NCBI GenBank assembly: GCA_016933055.1 | Contig: JAFGBS010000033.1 | Span: 65,693-97,692 of the forward strand | DNA from: Promethearchaeota archaeon | GTDB lineage: Archaea; Asgardarchaeota; Lokiarchaeia; Sigyniarchaeales; Promethearchaeaceae | Length of the DNA: 32,000 nt | Direction of reading: 5' to 3' | Notes under the pieces: generated by a model | Databases searched by the model: none | Seen by the model: the letters and a program-made list of their open reading frames with translations, nothing else | Told to the model about the DNA's origin: nothing | Part shown: piece after piece, positions 3 to 20,389 of the stretch | Position numbering within the stretch: position 1 is the stretch's first letter | Layout: every line of letters begins with the position of its first letter | Translations under genes and position numbers: made by a program

Positions 3-3000
3 AGGATTACTATAATAAATGCTTCGCAATATAATGTATCTGAATATGCTTATTATAGATCACCTAAAACTGATATATTAATAAAAAATGAAAATCTTTC
101 GATGGGAATACCAAATAATTGGGAAACATCCGTACTTTCTTTATCTGTCCCGTCTGTTTTTGAAGCCCTGGAAATTTTTAATGACTATGGTTTAAATGGT
201 GATTTTTCGGGTGGAACTGCAAATCCATGGGAATACTATACCACTCATTCTTGGTACAGTGGAATTCCCATGAGTGAGCCATATGCAAATTTTACGTATG
301 ATTCGTTAGATGAAAATGCATATGCAGATTTTTATGGAGGGAATAAAGGATTTCCCGTGAGAAGTGACTTCACGGAACCTGCTTTTTTTGGCGCTGCATC
401 CACAACAATTCCAGATTTCGATAAATCTGATTCAAATCTCGAATTCGGAGAATTGTATGAAGAAGAAACGACCGAATTTTCTATCAATGATGAATTTTTT
501 GAGGACCCTGAATATAATGTAATTCTTGATCCCTATGGCGGATACCGGGGAAATTCAAAAGTCACAGGAAATTGGATTGCTGGAATTAATGCATTAGAAA
601 ATATAATTGATACAAGATGGTCTTTGTTGTATGGTTATGGTTCACCTAGTGTGTGCTTCAGTACTCCCTTTTACATTCCTTTTGAAGCTGATAGCGTATC
701 AATCACTTTTCGTTGGAGTGTCGAAAATTTAGGCTATGAATATGCTGATGATTTTTTGGTAGCTTCAAGGATTAATCATCAGTATATTAATGGTAGTGTA
801 GGATTATATGGAGAAGATTATTCCGTAGATACTCTTGATTACACTGTTTTAGAATATGATGGTACTAGATCAGGATATGGAAGCGGAGACATAAGGAGCC
901 ATGAGTACTGGGAGAGAACTTATAACATTACTGAGTTATTAGGACCATATGGATATCATGCAGGATGGCATACTCTCGATTTTGGTATTGCTCTATTGAG
1001 TCCAGATAGCACCGATGATGATGTTATTGTTAATTGGGACTATATTATGATCAATGCTACTCATTATGATTGGTATAAATCCGCAGAATTAAATTTTGAA
1101 TTTCTTTGGGAAGATTTAGGGAGCACCGACCCTAATGGAAATCTCGCATTTTCCATATACATTGGAGAAGAGGGAACAGATAATTTCATGAGATATTTTA
1201 TTGGATATAGCACCCAATTACAAGAAGGTAGTTGGAATGAAGCGAGTATAATTCTTCCTCAACACTATCACAAAGCTTTTGAAGTAGATACCTTCAATTT
1301 TTTTGTGGGAATGGAAGATGCTGGACCATTAGTAGGCCCTCCTGAAACAACTGTTGGATTTTACCGAAGATTAACCGTAGATAATTTCTACTTAACCGTT
1401 AATTTTGACCTAGGTCCCCCTGAAACTTTGGGATTAGAAATGAAACTTAATGATGGAACTAATTGGATGCAAGTCAATAGTACAAACGAGATTTATACTG
1501 AAATCCAATCTACCACTTTAGAGGTGCAGTTTAATTTAACTACCAATCCTATATCAGATTCATACATTCGGTTTCAAGCTTATATAGTAGCGAAAAAATT
1601 TTCTGAACATCAAGCATTTTCAACAGTTAGTATTCACTCATTTAATGACCTATCTGCGCTGTGGAACACAACCTATAACAATACAGAGTCTGTCAATGAA
1701 TTTGATGACCCTTCCTTGTTGGGTGCAAATTCTAAATTTCTACTTTACTTATTGCGATTTGAAAACCTTCCAGCTTTCGATGGGATGGGTGACAATTCTA
1801 ACGATTGGAATGTATACCGAGCAGTGGACCCAAATGCACGTGATCAAACCCTCCGGATTATAAAAAATAGTAATGATCCTTTTCTTCAGAACATTACGAT
1901 ATATAACGCTACGTCAGGGAATCGAGGATCTCTTACACGAGGTTTATGGGAGTTAGATTCAAGTCAGGTTAATTATATGGTTAATGGAAGTCTCTATCTT
2001 GATGGTGGGATCAATAACGAGATATATTATAATGGGGACCTTGCAGAATATCATTTATATGTTAGAAATTCCAGTGGAATTTTTGGAAACTACAAAACTC
2101 AAATTTGGAATGCCACGTTGAATACAACAACGAATTTTCCAAAATACTATTCCAATGTAAATAACGCTACGTATGATTGGACGGTCTTTGATGAGGGAGT
2201 AGGATTATACCGGTTGTATAATCTTTGGAATGATACAAATTCCTTAAATCAGACTCGTAGACTTGGATGGTATCGGGACACTTTCGAAGTCTGGCGGCAT
2301 ACCACCGCTTCAATTCTTGAGGGGACGCTGGGAGTCACTGTAAGCTCAGGCGAATCTGCAGTCTATCATATTCAGTTTAATCAGACTAGTGTTGGTACCT
2401 CCGGTGTCACTGGTGCGCATATATATGCGTATAATGCAAGTTCTGGTAATTTATGGGGTAGAGATATTCCTCCTTATGTATATCTATTAGATTATTTAAC
2501 TGATGATTCTGGAGGCGCCTACACAATCGCCCTGAAAACGATTTCTGTCCCAACTGGAAGCTATCAAGTCAATTTTACTATCTACAAAGCCTTTCATGAA
2601 ATTTTTATAACATTGAATACGGGACTGACGATTACAGGTGCCTTGGGAAGTATGGATATAACCTATAATTCGGGAGCTTTTATCTATCAAGCATCTCCCA
2701 CAAGATTATATTTGGACTCAAATAATATCCCCTACGTAAATGATTCTACAAATTCAGTTATCGAAATAACCTTGGAGGATTCTACTAGCAGTGCACGACT
2801 AAGGGATGCATATATTTCAGCTTCGTTTAATGACTCAAGTAGTAGTTTGATGATTGCTCGTGAAAAATATTCCATTACGTTTGTAGAAAGTGATAAAGGA
2901 GTATATATTCTGACAATAAATACTGTAAATCTTCATGTTACGAACGGGTCTCCTTTTTTTAATTATACTCTACAAATATCGTATTATAAACCAGGTTACG

Positions 3001-5648
3001 CCTTAAAAGTACATCGAGTGGAGGTTCAAATCGATCCAGTTCCCTTAGTTATTACTCCAGAACCTATTCTTCCACAATATGAAGAAGAGATATTAACGAT
3101 ACAAGCGACAACTTTCGCTAATAACACCGGGATTCTTAGTGCTTATGAATTTTGTGAGCTGAATTATTCCGTATATAATTCTTCGGGATACATTTTTGGG
3201 GGATCTTTACCGAAAAAGATATTTAATTTCTTTGAAATTAATATTGAGCTAATTAGCACTCATGATTTACATCCTGGTGAATATTACGTAATATTGAATG
3301 GAACTGGTATTGATCTTTCTACATCAGTTTCTGGAAGTTTACCATTTACCATTTATTCAAAATATGTGACTCTATTAAGCTTAACTTTTCCAAATGAAGT
3401 CAGAATCGGCAATTATTTTAGTATATCCTCAAAATTACAGTATGCTAATCTCACAGTTTTAGCTAGTGAGGAAATTTTCCTTACTATTAATTACTCGACA
3501 ATCTACTCGTTCCAGGTAAGTGTACAAACTGATTATCAAGGTAGAGGAATTTATGAACTTCTGATTCCTGAATATTACGAGGGAAATGATTTTACAGTGT
3601 ATGCTCAATATTTTGGGACCAATATATTAAACCCATCTCAGACTATAAAAAACCAGATTATATTAGGTAAAATTCCTGTGAATATTACTTTTATAGATAC
3701 ACCTGAAACCATCCAAGTAGGATATAGTGTGACATACCAAGCGACACTTTCAATTCTTTATGAACAAGACTACGAAGGAAAAATTCTCACTATGTATGGA
3801 TATTACGATTTTGATGGTAATCTCTCCCAACCTTTTCTCATAAGGGAATTAGCAGCGAGTAGTGATGGATTGGTATCCTATACAATAGACGAAATTGAGA
3901 ATGGTCATATAAATCTATCAGTATTTTTGGAATTTCAAGGAGATATTAGTACAGAGGATCAATTTAATTCCATAAATGGATCTATAATTCCGAAATGGGA
4001 CTCATCTTTTGTATTACAGAATTTTCCCAGCACCATGCGTCTTGGACAGACAGTTCCAATCGATTTGACTTTAAATTCCACAAACATCACCTTTTCGGAA
4101 TCCTTTGCCGTAATGCCCATCATCATTAAATTTGATTATGGCACCGTTAAACAGGAATTTCTCTACTATACAGATGAAAATGGTACACTCTCTTACAATG
4201 TAAAAATTCCCGATTCTGATGTATCCGTTGTTAACTACTCGGTATATTTTCCTGGGACTTCTAAGATCGAACCGTTTCTAATATCAGGTTCTATGCTAAT
4301 ACTACCCAAACTCGGTACAATACTTGAGATGGATAGTTTTGTATTGGGTCAGCAACGTACTGGAACTTTTTCATATTCCGCTATTTTGCAAGATGAATTC
4401 GGTTTCCCGGTGCCAAACGCCACAGTATACTTCAGAATCTACGATGAAAATGATCTGCTTATTGATTCACCGTTTACAACCACTAATAAAGAGGGTGTAG
4501 CAGCGATCTCAATAACTTTTGAGCAATCAGGGACTTATAAAATAATCGCAGAATTTGATGGAACGGGGATCTATTCAACAACCACGTCCCAAGAAATCAT
4601 AGTGGAAGCTGTATCAGATTTGATGTATTTTGTCGGATTTTTACCTTATATAGGTGGTTCTCTTGCAGTTGTTGTGGCAGGTGGTTTTATTTATCAGTAT
4701 GCTGTCGTAGTACCTAGAAGAAAGAAGCGTCTCAGATCTTTGAAAGCGATTCATCAAAGGTTTTCTGATGTTGAAAATATTCAATATATCTTAATTCTAA
4801 CGAAAACAGGTCTATCTGTTTTTTCTCGATCTTTTACCAGTGTTCCTATTGAGGAAACTCTTATTTCTGGATTTCTAAGTGCAATCTCCAGTTTCGGGGC
4901 AGAGATTGGTACGAAAATGAAACAAAGCGAATCAACTGATAAAGGATTGGAACAACTTTCCTATAAACAGTTCAAGATTATTGTTGATGACCTTGCTATT
5001 GTCCGTACAGCTCTATTACTTCTAAAAGATGCATCTCCTGATTTAAAGGAAAAACTTCGTCGATTTAATCTCCGTTTCCAAGAGAAATATATGGGGATCC
5101 TTCAAAACTGGACAGGGGAGATCCCCGCAGAAGGTCCGATTTTGGAAATGGTTGAAGAATTTTTAGAGGTTGATCTACTTTATCCTCACAATGTTAATGT
5201 GGCAAAATTAAATGAAAACTTGAAAACCTTGGAAAAGAAATCTATCAATCACAAGATTTTGGAAGCTGCCCACAGTGAACCATTCGGTGATGTTTTCTAC
5301 ATTCGGGAGATGATGAACCATTTACGGGCAACTGGGGAAGAAGACATTCATATCTTCAATGGAATAATCGAACTTGTAGAAAAAAATGCCATTTTTGCCA
5401 TTAATCCCCGTACTAGGATTCTCATTGATCAATTTAAACCGATCATAGACCAACTAAGCGAGGATGCGAAAATTGTTTTATTACAAATTTACGATGGGAA
5501 TAAGAATGAATCTAAGCTGCGTAGAATAAAAGAAATTTCCAATTTTGATCAAGGATCAAGAAGTTTGATTCAAATGGGTTTAATACAACAGGATTTATCT
5601 TTAACACCGGCGGGAGAGGCGATTGCAACAATCCTTAAACTAATATAG
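3..5648 (+). CDS. Giant single-pass surface (glyco)protein, 5'-truncated by the window edge: jelly-roll/Ig-like ectodomain, one TM helix, cytoplasmic longin-like domain and two winged-helix-like segments
   Basis: The frame of the 102..5648 ORF is open back to position 3 (RITIINASQYNVSEY...), so the true start lies upstream of the window. Ectodomain is beta-rich in T/S/Y/N with Ig-like motifs (GSYQVNF, PGEYYVILNG, SGTYKIIAEFDGTG). TM about 4623..4712 followed by RRKKR. Longin-like pattern at 4779..5165. C-terminal wHTH-like end (SLIQMGLIQQDLSLTPAGEAIA). Confidence 0.85.
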   Translation, partial: RITIINASQYNVSEYAYYRSPKTDILIKNENLSMGIPNNWETSVLSLSVPSVFEALEIFNDYGLNGDFSGGTANPWEYYTTHSWYSGIPMSEPYANFTYDSLDENAYADFYGGNKGFPVRSDFTEPAFFGAASTTIPDFDKSDSNLEFGELYEEETTEFSINDEFFEDPEYNVILDPYGGYRGNSKVTGNWIAGINALENIIDTRWSLLYGYGSPSVCFSTPFYIPFEADSVSITFRWSVENLGYEYADDFLVASRINHQYINGSVGLYGEDYSVDTLDYTVLEYDGTRSGYGSGDIRSHEYWERTYNITELLGPYGYHAGWHTLDFGIALLSPDSTDDDVIVNWDYIMINATHYDWYKSAELNFEFLWEDLGSTDPNGNLAFSIYIGEEGTDNFMRYFIGYSTQLQEGSWNEASIILPQHYHKAFEVDTFNFFVGMEDAGPLVGPPETTVGFYRRLTVDNFYLTVNFDLGPPETLGLEMKLNDGTNWMQVNSTNEIYTEIQSTTLEVQFNLTTNPISDSYIRFQAYIVAKKFSEHQAFSTVSIHSFNDLSALWNTTYNNTESVNEFDDPSLLGANSKFLLYLLRFENLPAFDGMGDNSNDWNVYRAVDPNARDQTLRIIKNSNDPFLQNITIYNATSGNRGSLTRGLWELDSSQVNYMVNGSLYLDGGINNEIYYNGDLAEYHLYVRNSSGIFGNYKTQIWNATLNTTTNFPKYYSNVNNATYDWTVFDEGVGLYRLYNLWNDTNSLNQTRRLGWYRDTFEVWRHTTASILEGTLGVTVSSGESAVYHIQFNQTSVGTSGVTGAHIYAYNASSGNLWGRDIPPYVYLLDYLTDDSGGAYTIALKTISVPTGSYQVNFTIYKAFHEIFITLNTGLTITGALGSMDITYNSGAFIYQASPTRLYLDSNNIPYVNDSTNSVIEITLEDSTSSARLRDAYISASFNDSSSSLMIAREKYSITFVESDKGVYILTINTVNLHVTNGSPFFNYTLQISYYKPGYALKVHRVEVQIDPVPLVITPEPILPQYEEEILTIQATTFANNTGILSAYEFCELNYSVYNSSGYIFGGSLPKKIFNFFEINIELISTHDLHPGEYYVILNGTGIDLSTSVSGSLPFTIYSKYVTLLSLTFPNEVRIGNYFSISSKLQYANLTVLASEEIFLTINYSTIYSFQVSVQTDYQGRGIYELLIPEYYEGNDFTVYAQYFGTNILNPSQTIKNQIILGKIPVNITFIDTPETIQVGYSVTYQATLSILYEQDYEGKILTMYGYYDFDGNLSQPFLIRELAASSDGLVSYTIDEIENGHINLSVFLEFQGDISTEDQFNSINGSIIPKWDSSFVLQNFPSTMRLGQTVPIDLTLNSTNITFSESFAVMPIIIKFDYGTVKQEFLYYTDENGTLSYNVKIPDSDVSVVNYSVYFPGTSKIEPFLISGSMLILPKLGTILEMDSFVLGQQRTGTFSYSAILQDEFGFPVPNATVYFRIYDENDLLIDSPFTTTNKEGVAAISITFEQSGTYKIIAEFDGTGIYSTTTSQEIIVEAVSDLMYFVGFLPYIGGSLAVVVAGGFIYQYAVVVPRRKKRLRSLKAIHQRFSDVENIQYILILTKTGLSVFSRSFTSVPIEETLISGFLSAISSFGAEIGTKMKQSESTDKGLEQLSYKQFKIIVDDLAIVRTALLLLKDASPDLKEKLRRFNLRFQEKYMGILQNWTGEIPAEGPILEMVEEFLEVDLLYPHNVNVAKLNENLKTLEKKSINHKILEAAHSEPFGDVFYIREMMNHLRATGEEDIHIFNGIIELVEKNAIFAINPRTRILIDQFKPIIDQLSEDAKIVLLQIYDGNKNESKLRRIKEISNFDQGSRSLIQMGLIQQDLSLTPAGEAIATILKLI

Positions 5649-5667: not shown

Positions 5668-6450
5668 TTACTTACTTTTTTCATCTATTTTAGTAGTCTT
5701 AATCTCCCCTTTTTTTTTCGAGCGGATAGCTAATCCTGAGAACATAACAATGATTGAAATGGAAATAATTGCGAAAGATGCAATGTCCATTATCTGGCTA
5801 ATTGTATTTTGTAAAGCCCCATAGAAGGGTAATTGCCCCATAACATTCACAATGGTTCCACCAATCGCAATCAAAACACCGAGTAAAAATCTCTTCATAT
5901 TACGATTCTTCAAACCGGTAGTTTTTTTCACACCATAGTTGTACAAGACTAAGCATGCACTAATCAAGAAAATGAATAATAATATAATGAGAGGGAATAA
6001 TATATAGAGATTCAAGGTAGTATCTACAGGCTGATAGGTATTGATAGTAATCCAATCCGGAATGAATAGCGGTCGTGTCCAAATTATTAGCATCAATGAA
6101 TATACACTGCATAATATGATCCATGGCAAGGTATTCTTCTTGAATGTTATCCACAATCTACTGTGTGCTTGCATCATCATAGCAAAATACAATAACATTC
6201 CTGCAAAAAGTATAGAAATCAGACTTACACGAATAAAGATTAATATAAATATATCCTTGCTTGCATCTATTGCTAAAAGATCATAGATTAACACTCCCCC
6301 GGTATAAAATCCTAACAATAAAAATGAAGTTGCTAGATATATATTTGGCAAGTTTTTTCTTGATCTGAAAAAAACCAATATTGCACAAATGAATCCCGTA
6401 GCCGTGGTTATTCCTTCAAAAACCACTTTGAGAATGAATTCTGCTTCCAT
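5668..6450 (-). CDS. Stand-alone 7-TM membrane protein (HisKA_7TM-like sensor module without kinase)
   Basis: Seven hydrophobic stretches counted by eye, short basic C-tail, no catalytic domain. Confidence 0.7.
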   Translation of the reverse strand: MEAEFILKVVFEGITTATGFICAILVFFRSRKNLPNIYLATSFLLLGFYTGGVLIYDLLAIDASKDIFILIFIRVSLISILFAGMLLYFAMMMQAHSRLWITFKKNTLPWIILCSVYSLMLIIWTRPLFIPDWITINTYQPVDTTLNLYILFPLIILLFIFLISACLVLYNYGVKKTTGLKNRNMKRFLLGVLIAIGGTIVNVMGQLPFYGALQNTISQIMDIASFAIISISIIVMFSGLAIRSKKKGEIKTTKIDEKSK

Positions 6451-6715: not shown

Positions 6716-7678
6716 TTATACTGGTTGTATCTTCACGGAAATGGGAGTGTTGAATCTTGTATTTTTATTATTAAGAGCTTGAATTATAGCATTATCCCAA
6801 GAAATAAGATCATGATATTCTGGTAATAATTTCCGAATCAATGAATCTTGAAAATGAGCACCTCGCCAGGAAAATGCCAATATAATTTTAGCCATATTGT
6901 TTAGTTTGCCCCATGATATGAAAATTGACGGTTTCATTTTTTGGAAAGGTGTTTGGATTAAGGAGGAATGTTTATTGAGAAATAAATCGAGTGGAATATG
7001 ATAAGAAGGTACATGAAAACTTTGGTTATAAGCTGGTTTTTCAATCAATATAGAAATTAATTCACATAAATTATCCACTGGCATGATGGAGATTAATTTT
7101 TTTCCTTTTCCGAAATAAAATACCTGCTTATTTTTAATTAACTCAACCAGTTTAGGAGAGACCATGCAATCTCCTTTTCCGATCATAAGTGGTAATCTTA
7201 ACACAGTAAAAGGGATTCCAGATTTTAGAACTACTACTTCCGCTTGAGCCTTGCTTCTTGAATATTTTGAAAACAAAAAATGAGGGCGTATCTTGGTTGA
7301 ATATTCATCTCGATTTTGACCCAATGTCCGAAATCCGTACACTGACACGGAACTTAGGTATATGAAATTTTTGCAATTCTTCTGTTTTGCGTAATCAATG
7401 ATTTTTCTTGTACCATCTACATTGGTCTGTTTTAATGTCTTAAATCGAGCATTATCATCGAGTAAACCAATAGTATGGATAATAACATCAAAATCAATAT
7501 CATTGAAAACTGTGGCACAAGAATCTTTGTTAATATCAAACACAAATTCTCTTTTGTCTAAAGGTGGTCGAGATCGGGTAGTTCCATAGGTTTCGTAGCC
7601 TTTTTCATCAAGAAATTTTCTGATTGCATAACCTAGGAATCCCGAACTGCCAGTGATTAGAATTTTCATAAGTTTCAT
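6716..7678 (-). CDS. Extended SDR, NAD(P)-dependent epimerase/dehydratase, 3beta-HSD/OleD-like
   Basis: TGSSGFLG Rossmann motif, NVDGT, YLSSVSVYG, YSRSK (YxxxK) followed by AEVVVL, and LRLPLMIGKGD resembling the 3beta-HSD/NSDHL RPxxIxGxGD segment. Confidence 0.8.
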   Translation of the reverse strand: MKLMKILITGSSGFLGYAIRKFLDEKGYETYGTTRSRPPLDKREFVFDINKDSCATVFNDIDFDVIIHTIGLLDDNARFKTLKQTNVDGTRKIIDYAKQKNCKNFIYLSSVSVYGFRTLGQNRDEYSTKIRPHFLFSKYSRSKAQAEVVVLKSGIPFTVLRLPLMIGKGDCMVSPKLVELIKNKQVFYFGKGKKLISIMPVDNLCELISILIEKPAYNQSFHVPSYHIPLDLFLNKHSSLIQTPFQKMKPSIFISWGKLNNMAKIILAFSWRGAHFQDSLIRKLLPEYHDLISWDNAIIQALNNKNTRFNTPISVKIQPV

Positions 7679-7728
7679 TTTTCAATTGAGTTTATAGGTA
7701 GAAAAAATACGATTAATCCCTCATCCAC

Positions 7729-8712
7729 TTAGATTTTCGATTTTTTTGTGTAGAATTCTGATTTTCTAAGCAAAATATATCGGGCAAGAGGCTTAAACAT
7801 CCATATAAAGAACCGTTTACCGCGAATTCGTTTCTTCATTGTGTCATAGACGTCTCGCAAAGTATGTCTTTGATAATGGAATTTATCTTGAGATTCAACG
7901 GTATCAAGGTATCCACAATGATATCCTTCAGTACTGAATGCTTCTGGTGGAAGTAAATTTCTTCCTAATCCATATATTTCCATCATATCGTCCAAATAAT
8001 CTTTATAGGTAATTCTGCAATTCTCTCCACCTGCTATGTGGTACGTATTTCCCCAAATATCAATACAATCCACTGCATTAGCAAGAGCTAATCCTACATC
8101 CTTTGAATGGCAAATCTCAAGACTGGTCGCGAGAGGCATTTTGAACATAGTTGGCTGAAATTGTACTCGATAAGGTTCAACTATATAGGTTAATCTGAAA
8201 ATTGCAAAATCAATCCCTGACTCTTTGATGATCTTTTCTGCTTTAATTTTAGTTTTGGCATATTCATCCCCTTTACTCGGTTGTACGGGATCCGATTTCT
8301 TAATGAATGGATTACGTACTCGATCGCCATATATTGAAATAGAGGATGTGAATATGAGTTTTGTATTCGGCGAGGATTCTTGAATGATAGAGATGATATT
8401 TTTTGTCCCTCCCACGTTCACTTGTTCTGCCAATTTTGGGCGTAAATCTGCAAGTGGTGGTATTATTGCTCCCAGATGGATTACGACATCTTGTCGTTTG
8501 ATAGCGGGAATAAGATCTTCTCTTTTTCGTAGATCTCCCCAAATGATTTCAACTTTTTTCCTCAATTTCCTCGCAATCAAGCGATTCTTTGGATTTTTGA
8601 GCTCAAAGATAGTTATTTTATAACCTTTATTCAGTAATTCTTCTAAAGTGGAGGATCCAACGTTTCCGAATGCTCCCGTCAATAATACTCGTTTTGTCAT
8701 TGCAGTTACCAT
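7729..8712 (-). CDS. Extended SDR, NAD-dependent epimerase/dehydratase, 3beta-HSD-like
   Basis: TGAFGNVG, HLGAIIPP, NVGGT, FTSSISIYG, YAKTK (YxxxK). Acidic residue at the end of beta2 (ITIFE). Confidence 0.8.
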   Translation of the reverse strand: MVTAMTKRVLLTGAFGNVGSSTLEELLNKGYKITIFELKNPKNRLIARKLRKKVEIIWGDLRKREDLIPAIKRQDVVIHLGAIIPPLADLRPKLAEQVNVGGTKNIISIIQESSPNTKLIFTSSISIYGDRVRNPFIKKSDPVQPSKGDEYAKTKIKAEKIIKESGIDFAIFRLTYIVEPYRVQFQPTMFKMPLATSLEICHSKDVGLALANAVDCIDIWGNTYHIAGGENCRITYKDYLDDMMEIYGLGRNLLPPEAFSTEGYHCGYLDTVESQDKFHYQRHTLRDVYDTMKKRIRGKRFFIWMFKPLARYILLRKSEFYTKKSKI

Positions 8713-17970: not shown

Positions 17971-19227
17971 TTAAGTATCCCTCAAAGGCTTAAGAACCCA
18001 ACCTGCGGTTCGTTTCGTCAATGGACCCATGGAATCATGTTTCTTTATTTCAAATGGTTTGGGCATGAGAAAATTTCCCATTTCTTTTAACTCGATAGTT
18101 AATAACTCTAATTGGTTCTTTGATAATTCTCCGAAGAGAAAATACTTTATGAGGGGAGGATCCAGCTCCCAATCCCATATTCCTACTACAACTCCATTTA
18201 AAATTATGGTGTTTGTTGCATTTCCAGATCTATCAAAGATATAATCCTTTCCTTCTTCAATATATCGGTCCCGAAATTTATATCCCATAATATAAGGATC
18301 CAGAATGGGCAATAGGGAAATAATGGATTCATGAGCCGGATTTAAAACTTTTGCTAAAATTAACTGATCTGAAGAAATATAGAATTCTTGATTAAACGGA
18401 TTCACATCAATCGTGGTCAATTTTAAAAATAATTTCTCAAGGCTTTCCTTAACAACAGTTTTTCCAAAACCCGTCCACCATACAATATCATTAAGACAAA
18501 CTGGACCATAATGGTTGACGTATTGAAGAATTATTTTCTCGATAGCTTCTTGTTCTGTTATAGAATCTAATTTAACATTTGGTACTGCTTCTTCGAATAA
18601 TTCATATGTGTGCATTCTATCCAACCAATTATTTCGGGGTTTACTACGAACAATCAGTCCCAGATCTGATAAAATAATTAAGATCGAGGACAGATCTACA
18701 TCCGTTTGCAATTTTTCTCTTATTTCTCTTATTGTTAGTGGTTTGTTTTTCAATAAATCCAAAATTCTCTCTTTATAGTCCAACAAGGTTTGGTTTCCTA
18801 TTTTAATATAATCCAAACGTTTTTGCATCTGTCTTAGACGATATTTCAGAGTTGCAACATGCATAGTAGGTATTAGATCTTCATGATGAAAAAACACCGT
18901 ACCCCGAATACATCGAATTTTCGCAATATTCTTACTTTTATATAGAAGTTCGTGCAAAACATCGGTTGTAAAGTCCTTGCCGCGACAAAATAGCGATATA
19001 TATGCAGAAGAAGTATTTGTTGCATGCAAACCCAGTAAATCCGAAATAATTTGACTTATATTATTGGTATGCGTGTCTTTTGTTAAATGTGATTTCTCTA
19101 AAATAAACCGATTTCCGATTTCTTTAGGCATATTCATCTTATATTCAATTTTGATAACGGGATCTAATAAATAAATAGAAAAGTCGTTTATCATATCAAC
19201 TTCCAGAAACGAATAGGATAGGCTCAT
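17971..19227 (-). CDS. AlkZ/YcaQ-like winged-helix (HTH_42) DNA glycosylase family protein
   Basis: GLHATNTSSAYISLFCR, IRGTVFF, YVNHYGPVCLNDIVWWTG, LLPILDPYIMGYKFR, GVVVGIW. The true start may be the later Met near 19137 (MNMPKEIGNRFILEKSHL). Confidence 0.8.
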   Translation of the reverse strand: MSLSYSFLEVDMINDFSIYLLDPVIKIEYKMNMPKEIGNRFILEKSHLTKDTHTNNISQIISDLLGLHATNTSSAYISLFCRGKDFTTDVLHELLYKSKNIAKIRCIRGTVFFHHEDLIPTMHVATLKYRLRQMQKRLDYIKIGNQTLLDYKERILDLLKNKPLTIREIREKLQTDVDLSSILIILSDLGLIVRSKPRNNWLDRMHTYELFEEAVPNVKLDSITEQEAIEKIILQYVNHYGPVCLNDIVWWTGFGKTVVKESLEKLFLKLTTIDVNPFNQEFYISSDQLILAKVLNPAHESIISLLPILDPYIMGYKFRDRYIEEGKDYIFDRSGNATNTIILNGVVVGIWDWELDPPLIKYFLFGELSKNQLELLTIELKEMGNFLMPKPFEIKKHDSMGPLTKRTAGWVLKPLRDT

Positions 19228-19477
19228 TTAAGATGTAGGCACTCCTATACTTTCAAAGCTATACTAGGGTTAGATCTTTTTTGGATAGGCTTGAAGCATA
19301 GGGTGAAAAAGAATAGGGCTTTTTGAACACTGAACTTTAGGTTCCTAACCATTGGTTCAATATATATATCAAGAAAATTCCCAAACATAAAATAAATACA
19401 ATTCTAATTGATATAAGTAATATTTTTATTCACATCATGGATGTCCTTGGTTATTTAAAATTTTGTTAGGTGAAAAT

Positions 19478-20389
19478 ATGGTAAAAAAAAAACGGAAAAC
19501 TCCATATGTACCTGGAATTGCCGCTATGAAATTCAAACCGAACCATGATTGGACCATGATGGAAGCAAAAGCACTTTTTTTGGATATGAATAGCAATCGA
19601 AACATTCCTCTTGACACAATTAAATATGAGGATTGCATAATCGGAATGAGATCTCTCTCTGAAAGATCTGTTGATTTAGTAGTTGCAGATCCACCTTTTG
19701 GTATCGATTTTTCAGATAAAGAGAGTCTTTATAATCGTAATAGTAACCTTATTCTGGATGGATATGAAGAAGTGTCTAGGATTAAATATTCAGATTTTAC
19801 CAGTTTATGGATACATGAATTACCCAGGATTATGAAAAATACTGCTTCTGCTTATATTTTCTCAGGCTGGACAAACCTAAAAGAGATTTTAGAAGCAATA
19901 GGTCAGTCCGGATTATTTATAATTAATCATATAATATGGAAATACCAGTTTGGAGTATTTACAAAACGTAAATTTGTAACCAGCCATTATCATATATTAT
20001 TTTGTGTGAAAAATCCGAAAAAATATTTTTTCAACAAAATTGAACATTACCCCGAAGATGTATGGATAATTCCACGGAGATATCGGCCAGGTCAATCAAA
20101 AAACAATACAAGACTACCCGATGAAGTCGTATCTCGTTGCATTCATTTTTCATCTAGACCCGGAGATGTCGTATTTGATCCGTTTCTGGGTAATGGCACT
20201 ACGGCAGTTTGTGCTATAGCCAACTTTCGACATTATTTTGGATTTGAGATCAATAAGAACATGAAGGAGATAATTGAAAAAAGCCTCTCCGAGACAGATT
20301 TAGGCAGAGATTATATTCCTTATACCGAATTGTTACCATCACTAGAAGAACTGGCAGAAAAATATCCTGCTGTTAAAAAAAGATTGTAA
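19478..20389 (+). CDS. Beta-class amino (N6-adenine or N4-cytosine) DNA methyltransferase, orphan
   Basis: Motif IV VDLVVADPPF precedes motif I VFDPFLGNGTT (beta order), with GFEIN downstream. ATG at 19478 preferred over TTG at 19463. No nuclease gene adjacent. Confidence 0.88.
   Translation: MVKKKRKTPYVPGIAAMKFKPNHDWTMMEAKALFLDMNSNRNIPLDTIKYEDCIIGMRSLSERSVDLVVADPPFGIDFSDKESLYNRNSNLILDGYEEVSRIKYSDFTSLWIHELPRIMKNTASAYIFSGWTNLKEILEAIGQSGLFIINHIIWKYQFGVFTKRKFVTSHYHILFCVKNPKKYFFNKIEHYPEDVWIIPRRYRPGQSKNNTRLPDEVVSRCIHFSSRPGDVVFDPFLGNGTTAVCAIANFRHYFGFEINKNMKEIIEKSLSETDLGRDYIPYTELLPSLEELAEKYPAVKKRL

What the first reader, a model, noticed from the sequence alone, without database searches (positions are those of the whole stretch)
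4623..5648. Receptor-like architecture: giant ectodomain, one TM, longin-like domain, two winged helices
Seen: after the TM and RRKKR, the sequence IQYILILTK / GLSVFSRSF / EETLISGFLSAISSFGAEI / LEQLSYK / FKIIVDD / VRTALLLL / LKEKLRRFNLRFQEKY / ILEMVEEFL follows the beta-beta-alpha-beta-beta-beta-alpha-alpha order of a longin fold. Two winged-helix-like segments follow (about 5250..5405 and 5451..5640). Established: longin domains are eukaryotic trafficking and small-GTPase regulatory modules and Asgard signature domains; winged helices serve in DNA binding and in ESCRT-II-type protein contacts. Inference: a eukaryote-like single-pass receptor or adhesin coupling an extracellular cue to GTPase or membrane-remodelling machinery.
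Basis: partly seen in the sequence, partly recalled or inferred. Interest (0 to 1): 0.75.

Follow-up and report, generated by a model that had tools for sequence, protein, structure and literature searches.

The report
Asgard surface protein, longin-winged-helix tail
This gene of a Loki-type Asgard archaeon encodes a giant sugar-coated surface protein whose short inner tail has the longin and winged-helix folds that eukaryotes use to dock small GTPases. The layout is real and common across Asgard archaea, but what the tail binds is still unknown.

Summary
The ORF ending at 5648 is the 3' part of a 1935-aa gene that starts 160 nt upstream of the window with a signal peptide. It has a ~1570-aa sequon-rich ectodomain, one TM helix (4620-4712), a PRRKKR stop-transfer motif and a 311-aa tail.

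It matches solved longin domains (Sec22b, synbindin, VAMP7, AP mu/sigma, SRX) at Z 11-12.3, better than roadblock/MglB (Z 9-10). The last 79 residues are a MarR-type winged helix (Z 9.5). The middle segment fits a winged helix only by its secondary-structure pattern.

The tail has no Pfam family. It recurs behind a TM helix in 192 of 209 retrieved relatives, under ectodomains of very different size. It occurs in 188 of 201 sampled genomes of the phylum, several copies each, and is better conserved than the ectodomain (40-62% vs 25-42% identity).

Coupling to a GTPase or to ESCRT is not shown. There is no conserved neighbour, no informative fusion, and the GAP-longin GP motif is absent. The closest known layout is NPRL2/NPRL3. 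The scan met this family before on paralogous DNA. I found no published description of the receptor-like fusion.

The parts
3..5648 (+). 3' 1881 codons plus the stop of a 1935-aa gene. The true start (ATG) lies 160 nt upstream of the window at contig position C10:65533 and encodes a signal peptide, MREKRKN-ILYLSISLVLIVLLP-TMA.
   Evidence: The database protein P0002 (1935 aa) is 100% identical.
3..4619 (+). Ectodomain (window part). It is N/S/T/Y-rich and K/R-poor. The whole ectodomain carries 42 N-x-S/T sequons. It is conserved over its full length in ~1900-2000-aa orthologues at 25-42% identity.
   Evidence: The Atlas feature search points to Big_1-rich Ig-like proteins, as a lead only.
4365..4586 (+). 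Membrane-proximal bacterial Ig-like domain (Big_1).
   Evidence: Pfam PF02369, E 2.5e-9, 37.5 bits against a cut-off of 34.9. Orthologues also carry MG2/MG4 macroglobulin-type domains.
4620..4712 (+). Single transmembrane helix.
   Evidence: Hydropathy maximum of 1.88 over 19 residues at P0001 1540. 192 of 209 relatives have a TM directly upstream of the tail.
4713..4775 (+). Polybasic stop-transfer motif (P-[RK]5; P in 90% of the family) and juxtamembrane helix with conserved L10, F17, D19 and N22.
   Evidence: The pI of this segment is 11.8.
4776..5180 (+). Longin-fold domain (beta-beta-alpha-beta-beta-beta-alpha-alpha). The family signature L-[IV]-S-G-F-[LI]-S-A-x-S-S-F lies on helix 1, with A57 and F61 invariant.
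5181..5408 (+). First winged-helix-like domain (beta-alpha-alpha-beta-alpha-alpha-beta). It is present in nearly all family members. The fold was not independently matched.
   Evidence: pLDDT >95. No Pfam or PDB sequence match. Many relatives end right after it.
5409..5645 (+). Second winged helix, MarR/TubR/Rio2-like. It is found in this orthologue group and in part of the family only.
   Evidence: VIA Z 9.5, rmsd 2.3, 74 aligned residues. Profile against PDB sequences gives E 3.3e-4 to the CheF C-terminal domain and 4.6e-4 to ZitR.

Best explanation
The gene encodes a type-I (signal peptide, single-pass) glycosylated surface protein of a Loki-type Asgard archaeon. Its conserved 311-aa cytoplasmic tail is a docking module made of a juxtamembrane basic helix, a longin domain and one or two winged helices. 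Asgard archaea attach this same module to many different ectodomains.

Most likely mechanism (inferred, not shown): the variable ectodomain binds something outside the cell, such as a partner cell, a surface or a polymer. The membrane-held longin domain acts as longin and roadblock domains do elsewhere. It would serve as a platform that binds a conserved cytosolic partner, either one of the many Asgard small GTPases or a soluble longin/roadblock protein through beta-sheet pairing. The winged helices would act as protein-contact modules rather than DNA binders. The protein would thereby link the cell surface to GTPase-type regulation or localisation at the membrane.

Shown here: the topology, the folds, the family and its conservation pattern. 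Inferred: the identity of the partner and the direction of signalling.
For: - Topology: signal peptide, one TM helix followed by PRRKKR, and 42 sequons outside against 2 inside.
- Longin fold: AF2 pLDDT 92. VIA Z 11-12.3 to Sec22b, synbindin, Trs23, VAMP7, AP mu/sigma, Fuzzy and SRX across the whole domain. Foldseek E about 1e-4.
- WH2 fold: Z 9.5.
- Modularity: 192 of 209 relatives have a TM directly upstream of the tail, with ectodomains from under 100 to about 2480 aa.
- Spread: 768 representatives, and 188 of 201 genomes of the phylum, several copies each. The window's own genome holds 5 copies of the full tail.
- Conservation: the tail is more conserved than the ectodomain (40-62% vs 25-42% identity), as expected for a shared cytoplasmic partner and diversifying outer parts.
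- Winged helices: they are about neutral in charge (median -1 to +1), which argues for protein contacts rather than DNA binding.
- Context from the literature: longin and roadblock domains act as GTPase platforms (PMC3747258). Asgard genomes fuse them to GTPases (PMC10933270), and one roadblock-Ras fusion lies 10 kb upstream here. Lokiarchaea lack an S-layer and show complex surface proteins (PMC9834061).
Against: - No partner is identified.
- Neighbours of the orthologues differ from locus to locus, and no GTPase gene is adjacent.
- GTPase-motif genes are not clearly enriched near the four complete copies in this genome: 2 seen against about 1 expected.
- The C-terminal extensions of relatives carry no informative domain.
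- The GP motif of GAP-type longins is absent: G33 is 95% conserved but is not followed by P.
- Longin domains also have roles without a GTPase, as in SNARE regulation and coat cores.
Confidence: 0.5

Rival explanations
1. Passive anchor or organiser. The tail does not signal. It ties envelope glycoproteins to a cytoplasmic scaffold (cytoskeleton or a submembrane lattice), or clusters them by longin-longin pairing. In this way it would replace the missing S-layer lattice.
For: - The same tail sits under many unrelated ectodomains and in many copies per genome.
- Lokiarchaea lack an ordered S-layer and show numerous protruding surface proteins (PMC9834061).
- Longin and roadblock domains commonly dimerise (PMC3747258, PMC10933270).
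Against: - No scaffold partner is known.
- A simple anchor would not need a 230-310-aa, three-domain tail kept at 40-62% identity.
- Other giant surface proteins of the same genome manage with a short basic tail.
Confidence: 0.22
2. Sorting or trafficking tag. The longin-winged-helix tail is recognised by machinery that delivers, localises (for example to protrusions) or removes surface proteins (ESCRT or vesicle release). In effect it would be a cargo protein with a built-in adaptor-like domain.
For: - The best structural matches include coat-adaptor longins (AP mu/sigma, zeta/delta-COP) and Sec22/VAMP7.
- Tandem winged helices are ESCRT-II-type contact modules (established knowledge).
- The tail is shared by many different cargo-like ectodomains.
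Against: - ESCRT-II chains did not appear among the listed matches.
- No ESCRT or coat gene is nearby.
- Internal trafficking in Asgard archaea is itself unproven.
Confidence: 0.15
3. Membrane-tethered transcription regulator. The MarR-like winged helix binds DNA, either at the membrane (ToxR/CadC style) or after proteolytic release of the tail.
For: - WH2 matches MarR/PadR/TubR DNA-binding proteins at Z 8-9.5.
- At sequence-profile level WH2 matches ZitR/AdcR at E about 5e-4.
Against: - WH2 is missing from about half of the aligned family, whose core is longin plus WH1.
- Both winged helices are about neutral or acidic, not basic.
- The equally good hit to the CheF C-terminal domain is to a protein-protein adaptor.
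- NPRL2/3 and ESCRT-II show that tandem wHTH often bind proteins (PMC3747258).
Confidence: 0.08

Closest known systems
NPRL2 / NPRL3 (Npr2/Npr3), subunits of GATOR1/SEACIT, and the 'NPRL2-like longin' proteins already reported in Asgard archaea (Liu et al., bioRxiv 10.1101/2020.10.19.343400)
   Same: [quoted passage not shown] Both are cytosolic modules that work at a membrane surface.
   Different: - There is no sequence-level match to Pfam NPR2/NPR3.
- NPRL2/3 chains were not among the listed structural matches.
- The GP motif is not conserved.
- Here the module is covalently tethered behind a TM helix and a ~1570-aa ectodomain, whereas NPRL2/3 are soluble heterodimer subunits.
Eukaryotic longin domains (Sec22b, VAMP7, Ykt6; TRAPPC1/2/4; AP sigma and mu N-termini; zeta/delta-COP; SR-alpha SRX; Fuzzy/Inturned, Mon1/Ccz1)
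   Same: The fold and strand order are the same over the whole domain: Z 11-12.3, rmsd about 3 A, 115-134 aligned residues.
   Different: - Sequence identity is 8-16% and there is no Pfam membership.
- In longin SNAREs the longin domain is N-terminal and the TM helix C-terminal. Here the TM helix precedes the longin domain and the N-terminus is a giant extracellular part.
- An extra juxtamembrane helix precedes strand 1.
Roadblock/LC7-MglB proteins, including Asgard roadblocks (PDB 9jue, 7yh1, 7f8m) and the Lokiarchaeal Roadblock-Longin protein (8yqg)
   Same: The beta-beta-alpha-beta-beta-beta core is related (Z 9-10). One NCBI record names an orthologue 'roadblock/LC7 domain-containing protein, partial'. 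Pfam Robl_LC7 is weakly hit by 4 of 114 tails.
   Different: The matches are shorter (102-112 residues, ending near tail residue 130). The two C-terminal helices fit longin, not roadblock.
Actinobacterial conservon / G-protein system (CvnA-D; MfpB-E)
   Same: The parts list is similar: a membrane sensor, a roadblock-type domain and an HTH-type protein (DUF742, a GEF in M. smegmatis) that regulate a small Ras-like GTPase (PMC13343842, PMC13621833, PMC11343762).
   Different: In the conservon these are four separate genes in one operon, with a histidine-kinase-like sensor. Here there is one fused polypeptide, no kinase domain, no DUF742 match and no adjacent GTPase gene.

Membership tests
Longin fold (SNARE-like superfamily) | Secondary-structure order beta-beta-alpha-beta-beta-beta-alpha-alpha | tested here: met
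   AF2 model with pLDDT 92: E23-30, E35-40, H48-69, E80-84, E87-93, E97-103, H109-131, H140-151.
Longin fold (SNARE-like superfamily) | Structural superposition on solved longin domains over the whole domain, and better than on the related roadblock fold | tested here: met
   Z 11-12.3 with 115-134 aligned residues to Sec22b, synbindin, VAMP7, AP mu/sigma and SRX. Roadblock/MglB reach Z 9-10 with 102-112 aligned residues.
Longin fold (SNARE-like superfamily) | Sequence membership in a Pfam longin-type family (Longin, Sybindin, Sedlin_N, Clat_adaptor_s, SRX) | tested here: not met
   There is no Pfam or NCBIfam family for the tail at E<=1. None of these families appears among 114 relatives at E<=0.01.
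NPRL2/NPRL3 (GATOR1) and GAP-type longins (FLCN, SMCR8) | Longin domain followed by winged HTH repeats | tested here: met
   Longin at tail 22-156, then two alpha/beta units. The second is a verified wHTH. The architecture definition is from PMC3747258.
NPRL2/NPRL3 (GATOR1) and GAP-type longins (FLCN, SMCR8) | Sequence similarity to the NPR2/NPR3 families | tested here: not met
   Pfam scans of the tail and of 114 relatives list neither family. The profile against PDB sequences gives no NPRL hit at E<=10.
NPRL2/NPRL3 (GATOR1) and GAP-type longins (FLCN, SMCR8) | Conserved GP motif in the beta1-beta2 loop (PMC12290439) | tested here: not met
   The loop is K-[ST]-G-[TLVI]-[CSP]. G33 is 95% conserved, the next residue is never mainly P, and P reaches 19% only at +2.
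NPRL2/NPRL3 (GATOR1) and GAP-type longins (FLCN, SMCR8) | Catalytic arginine finger in the equivalent structural position | tested here: inconclusive
   R98 (82% R) and K/R39 are conserved. I could not superpose on NPRL2 or FLCN to check whether the positions are equivalent.
Roadblock/LC7 | Pfam Robl_LC7 match, with the alpha-beta-beta-alpha-beta-beta-beta order ending after strand 5 or one helix | tested here: inconclusive
   Weak Robl_LC7 hits occur in 4 of 114 tails (best E 3e-4). A helix precedes strand 1. Two C-terminal helices follow strand 5, as in longin.
MarR-type winged helix-turn-helix DNA-binding domain (for WH2) | wHTH fold | tested here: met
   Z 9.5, rmsd 2.3, 74 residues to TubR. 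Many MarR/PadR rows lie at Z 8-9.4. The profile hits ZitR at E 4.6e-4.
MarR-type winged helix-turn-helix DNA-binding domain (for WH2) | Basic DNA-contact surface and DNA binding | tested here: inconclusive
   Net charge of WH2 is +1 here and the family median is -1. This does not favour DNA binding, but it is no assay.
ESCRT-II type tandem winged helices | Structural match of the WH1-WH2 pair to Vps22/25/36 | tested here: inconclusive
   No ESCRT-II chain is among the 50 listed rows of either search of the WH1-WH2 model. WH1 was hardly sampled by the lists.
Actinobacterial conservon-like G-protein system | Operon with a small Ras-like GTPase and a DUF742 protein | tested here: not met
   There is no GTPase gene next to this gene or its orthologues. 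The nearest one is 10 kb upstream. There is no DUF742 match.

The most novel reading that the evidence does not exclude
Asgard archaea possess a large, phylum-wide family of single-pass surface receptors. Their common longin-winged-helix tail directly recruits or regulates small GTPases at the plasma membrane. This would be a prokaryotic forerunner of eukaryotic receptor-to-GTPase or cargo-to-coat coupling. It would mean that longin platforms were already wired to the cell surface before endomembranes existed.
Probability: 0.3. Interest if true: 0.85.

Novelty: new variant of a known kind. Interest (0 to 1): 0.6.

Why it matters
Longin and roadblock domains and small GTPases are among the most expanded 'eukaryotic signature' families in Asgard archaea, yet nobody knows what they do in cells without visible endomembranes.

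This family places a longin module at a defined spot: the inner face of the plasma membrane, directly under large, variable, glycosylated surface proteins. It does so in nearly every sampled Asgard genome. That gives a concrete and experimentally tractable bait, a soluble and well-folded 230-310-aa tail, for finding the cytoplasmic partners of Asgard longins. It also lets one test whether surface contact, which is central to syntrophy and to models of eukaryogenesis, is coupled to GTPase-type regulation.

If the tail turns out to be only an anchor, it still marks a major class of Asgard envelope proteins.

Tried and rejected
- Homodimer prediction of the tail (two copies, alignment A1): no verdict (score 0.13 against a mark of 0.42). 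It counts neither for nor against pairing.
- Sequencing runs: no RNA holder is listed, so nothing can be said about expression. The DNA comes from a sediment metagenome.
- The search for related loci with the alignment failed for lack of a conserved stretch. The single-protein scan gave 3 loci.
- Profile of the whole tail against PDB sequences: nothing below E 0.05.
- hhalign of WH1 against WH2: no relation (probability 0.6%), so an internal duplication is not detectable.
- WH1 against PDB sequences and Pfam: nothing.
- NPRL2/NPRL3 and ESCRT-II chains did not appear in the listed structural matches. This is absence from lists only.
- Conserved synteny: none among the window, L014, L015, L023/L024 and L025.
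- Proximity of GTPase-motif genes to the four complete copies in this genome: 2 within 10 kb against about 1 expected, which is not informative.
- C-terminal extensions of ten relatives: no Pfam domain beyond weak TPR.
- Literature searches for a described TM-longin receptor in Asgard archaea: none found in the library searched.
Full report
**What is there**

The finding lies at the 3' end of one long + strand ORF (window 3-5648). The window is G000:C10:65693-97692. Reading the contig upstream shows that the frame opens with an ATG at C10:65533, 160 nt before the window. The N-terminus MREKRKN-ILYLSISLVLIVLLP-TMA|EF is a classical signal peptide. The full product has 1935 aa and is identical to a database protein, P0002.

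The only strongly hydrophobic segment in the window-encoded part is P0001 1540-1570 (window 4620-4712). It is followed at once by PRRKKR. The ectodomain carries 42 N-x-S/T sequons (2.6 per 100 aa) against 2 in the tail. It is rich in N, S, T and Y and poor in K and R. The signal peptide, the positive-inside rule and the sequon distribution agree on a type-I topology with the last 311 residues in the cytoplasm. Pfam sees only a membrane-proximal Big_1 Ig-like domain (window 4365-4586). It sees nothing in the tail, and neither does NCBIfam.

**Folds of the tail**

I built a 114-row alignment of tails (A1). With it, AlphaFold2 gives a confident model (mean pLDDT 92, pTM 0.82). The model has these parts:
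- A juxtamembrane helix (tail 2-22).
- The elements E23-30, E35-40, H48-69, E80-84, E87-93, E97-103, H109-131 and H140-151.
- Two alpha/beta units after that.

Foldseek against the PDB ranks zeta-COP, TRAPP longin subunits, AP sigma, SRX and MglB first (E about 1e-4). An exhaustive VIA-align search of 48,161 chains gives Z 11-12 to synbindin, AP-4 mu, VAMP7, sedlin, Sec22 and SRX over tail 22-156. The second look gives Z 12.3 to Sec22b. Roadblock/MglB proteins score lower (Z 9-10), align fewer residues and stop near residue 130. The domain is therefore a longin fold, not roadblock and not PAS/GAF.

The last 79 residues match MarR/TubR/Rio2-type winged helices at Z 9.5, rmsd 2.3 A. A sequence profile of this part reaches the CheF C-terminal domain and ZitR at E 3-5e-4.

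I also folded the tail from residue 150 on, as the WH1-WH2 pair (pLDDT 96). Its middle unit (tail 157-232) has the order beta-alpha-alpha-beta-alpha-alpha-beta. [quoted passage not shown] However, no listed fold match covered it, and it has no sequence match. Its assignment therefore stays provisional.

**A family, not a one-off**

An exhaustive HMMER search found 768 cluster representatives at E<=1e-3, 366 of them at E<=1e-10.

Of the 209 relatives I retrieved, 192 have a TM helix directly upstream of the tail. Of those, 171 have more than 300 residues N-terminal to the helix, with a median of about 1100 and a maximum of about 2480. The rest are mostly fragments that begin inside the tail.

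Many members end after the first winged helix, so the core module is TM, basic helix, longin and WH1. WH2 is an addition in this orthologue group and in some others.

The family signature includes:
- P-[RK]5 after the TM helix.
- D19 and N22 in the juxtamembrane helix.
- G33 in the beta1-beta2 loop.
- A nearly invariant L-[IV]-S-G-F-[LI]-S-A-x-S-S-F on helix 1 of the longin domain.

In 201 sampled genomes of the phylum, 188 have a match at E<=1e-10. Among high-quality genomes the figure is 85 of 86. Most have several copies. Source names place relatives in Promethearchaeota/Lokiarchaeota, Sigyn-, Hod- and Heimdallarchaeota. Atlas clusters are 99-100% archaeal.

The window's own genome has five genes with the full tail. 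It has about a dozen more with the longin domain alone, some soluble and some behind polytopic membrane domains.

This particular gene belongs to a well-kept orthologue group of ~1900-2000-aa proteins. Within the group the tail is more conserved (40-62% identity) than the ectodomain (25-42%).

**What it probably does**

The pattern is many fast-changing ectodomains over one slowly changing cytoplasmic module. This argues that the tail meets a common cytoplasmic partner.

Longin and roadblock domains are platforms or regulators for small GTPases, or subunits that pair through their beta-sheets (PMC3747258, PMC10933270). Asgard genomes are full of such GTPases and often fuse them to roadblock or longin domains (PMC10933270). 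A roadblock-Ras fusion lies 10 kb upstream of this gene. The winged helices are about neutral in charge, which fits protein contact better than DNA binding. Lokiarchaea lack an S-layer and display complex surface proteins (PMC9834061).

My best reading, at about even odds, is a surface receptor or adhesin whose longin-wHTH tail docks a small GTPase or a longin/roadblock partner at the membrane. The actinobacterial conservon is a prokaryotic precedent for this parts list. It combines a membrane sensor, a roadblock protein, the HTH-type DUF742 GEF and a Ras-like GTPase (PMC13343842, PMC13621833, PMC11343762).

None of this is shown here:
- Neighbours are not conserved.
- GTPase genes are not clearly enriched nearby.
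- Extensions in relatives are uninformative.
- The GP motif of GAP-type longins is missing.

The rivals are a passive anchor or organiser, a sorting tag, and a membrane-tethered transcription factor. The last is the least likely.

**Comparison with what is known**

The nearest known layout is NPRL2/NPRL3, a longin domain plus wHTH repeats. 'NPRL2-like longin' proteins and their fusions to two-component domains have been reported in Asgard archaea (bioRxiv 10.1101/2020.10.19.343400). Membership is not supported here. There is no sequence match, there is no GP motif, and this protein is membrane-tethered rather than soluble.

I found no paper in the searched library that describes a single-pass surface protein with a longin-wHTH tail. 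Public records call these proteins hypothetical, Ig-like or, once, roadblock/LC7.

The scan itself has met the architecture before. I re-derived the folds and the distribution independently.

**Verdict**

This is a new variant of a known kind, namely Asgard longin-domain signature proteins wired to the cell surface. Interest is moderate to high because it offers a defined bait for finding what Asgard longins bind.

Noticed in passing
window 5668-6450 (- strand): A 260-aa polytopic membrane protein with weak similarity to the 7TM N-terminal region of histidine kinases (HisKA_7TM, E 1.5e-4, below the cut-off). It is convergent with the surface-protein gene, and only 19 nt separate the two stop codons.
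   Followed up: no
window 9918-10709 (- strand): A steroid 5-alpha-reductase / polyprenol-reductase-type enzyme (PF02544, E 4.5e-50). This family is mostly eukaryotic and is linked to dolichol synthesis. It lies near two NAD-dependent sugar epimerase/dehydratase genes (6716-8712) and the heavily sequon-bearing surface protein.
   Followed up: no
window 11537-16683 (+ strand): A two-component cluster: a multi-PAS histidine kinase, two stand-alone receiver proteins (overlapping starts) and a hybrid PAS kinase with two receiver domains.
   Followed up: no
L026:909-1868 (G000:C10:54908-55864, + strand), 10 kb upstream of the gene: A 319-aa fusion of a roadblock/LC7 domain (E 7e-7) with a Ras/Roc-family small GTPase (E 7e-40). 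It is an example in this genome of a roadblock-type domain fused to a GTPase.
   Followed up: partly
G000:C17:458730-469006 (- strand): A soluble 294-aa protein with a longin domain related to the tail lies in a same-strand cluster. The cluster includes a 2031-aa signal-peptide, single-pass surface protein that has only a short basic tail. This may be a split version of the fused architecture.
   Followed up: partly
G000:C5:78418-80703 (- strand); G000:C2:179378-180592 (- strand): The same longin domain, without the winged helices, also sits at the C-terminus of polytopic membrane proteins: one of 762 aa with about 11 TM helices, and one of 405 aa with about 4. The longin module is therefore attached to several kinds of membrane protein.
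   Followed up: no
window 5409-5645: The best PDB sequence hit of the WH2 profile is the C-terminal domain of CheF, the archaeal adaptor between CheY and the archaellum (7od9, E 3.3e-4; 7ovp, E 0.022). This is a protein-protein adaptor rather than a DNA binder.
   Followed up: no
window 17971-20389: An AlkZ-like DNA glycosylase gene (- strand) lies next to an N6/N4 DNA methyltransferase gene (+ strand), divergently arranged.
   Followed up: no
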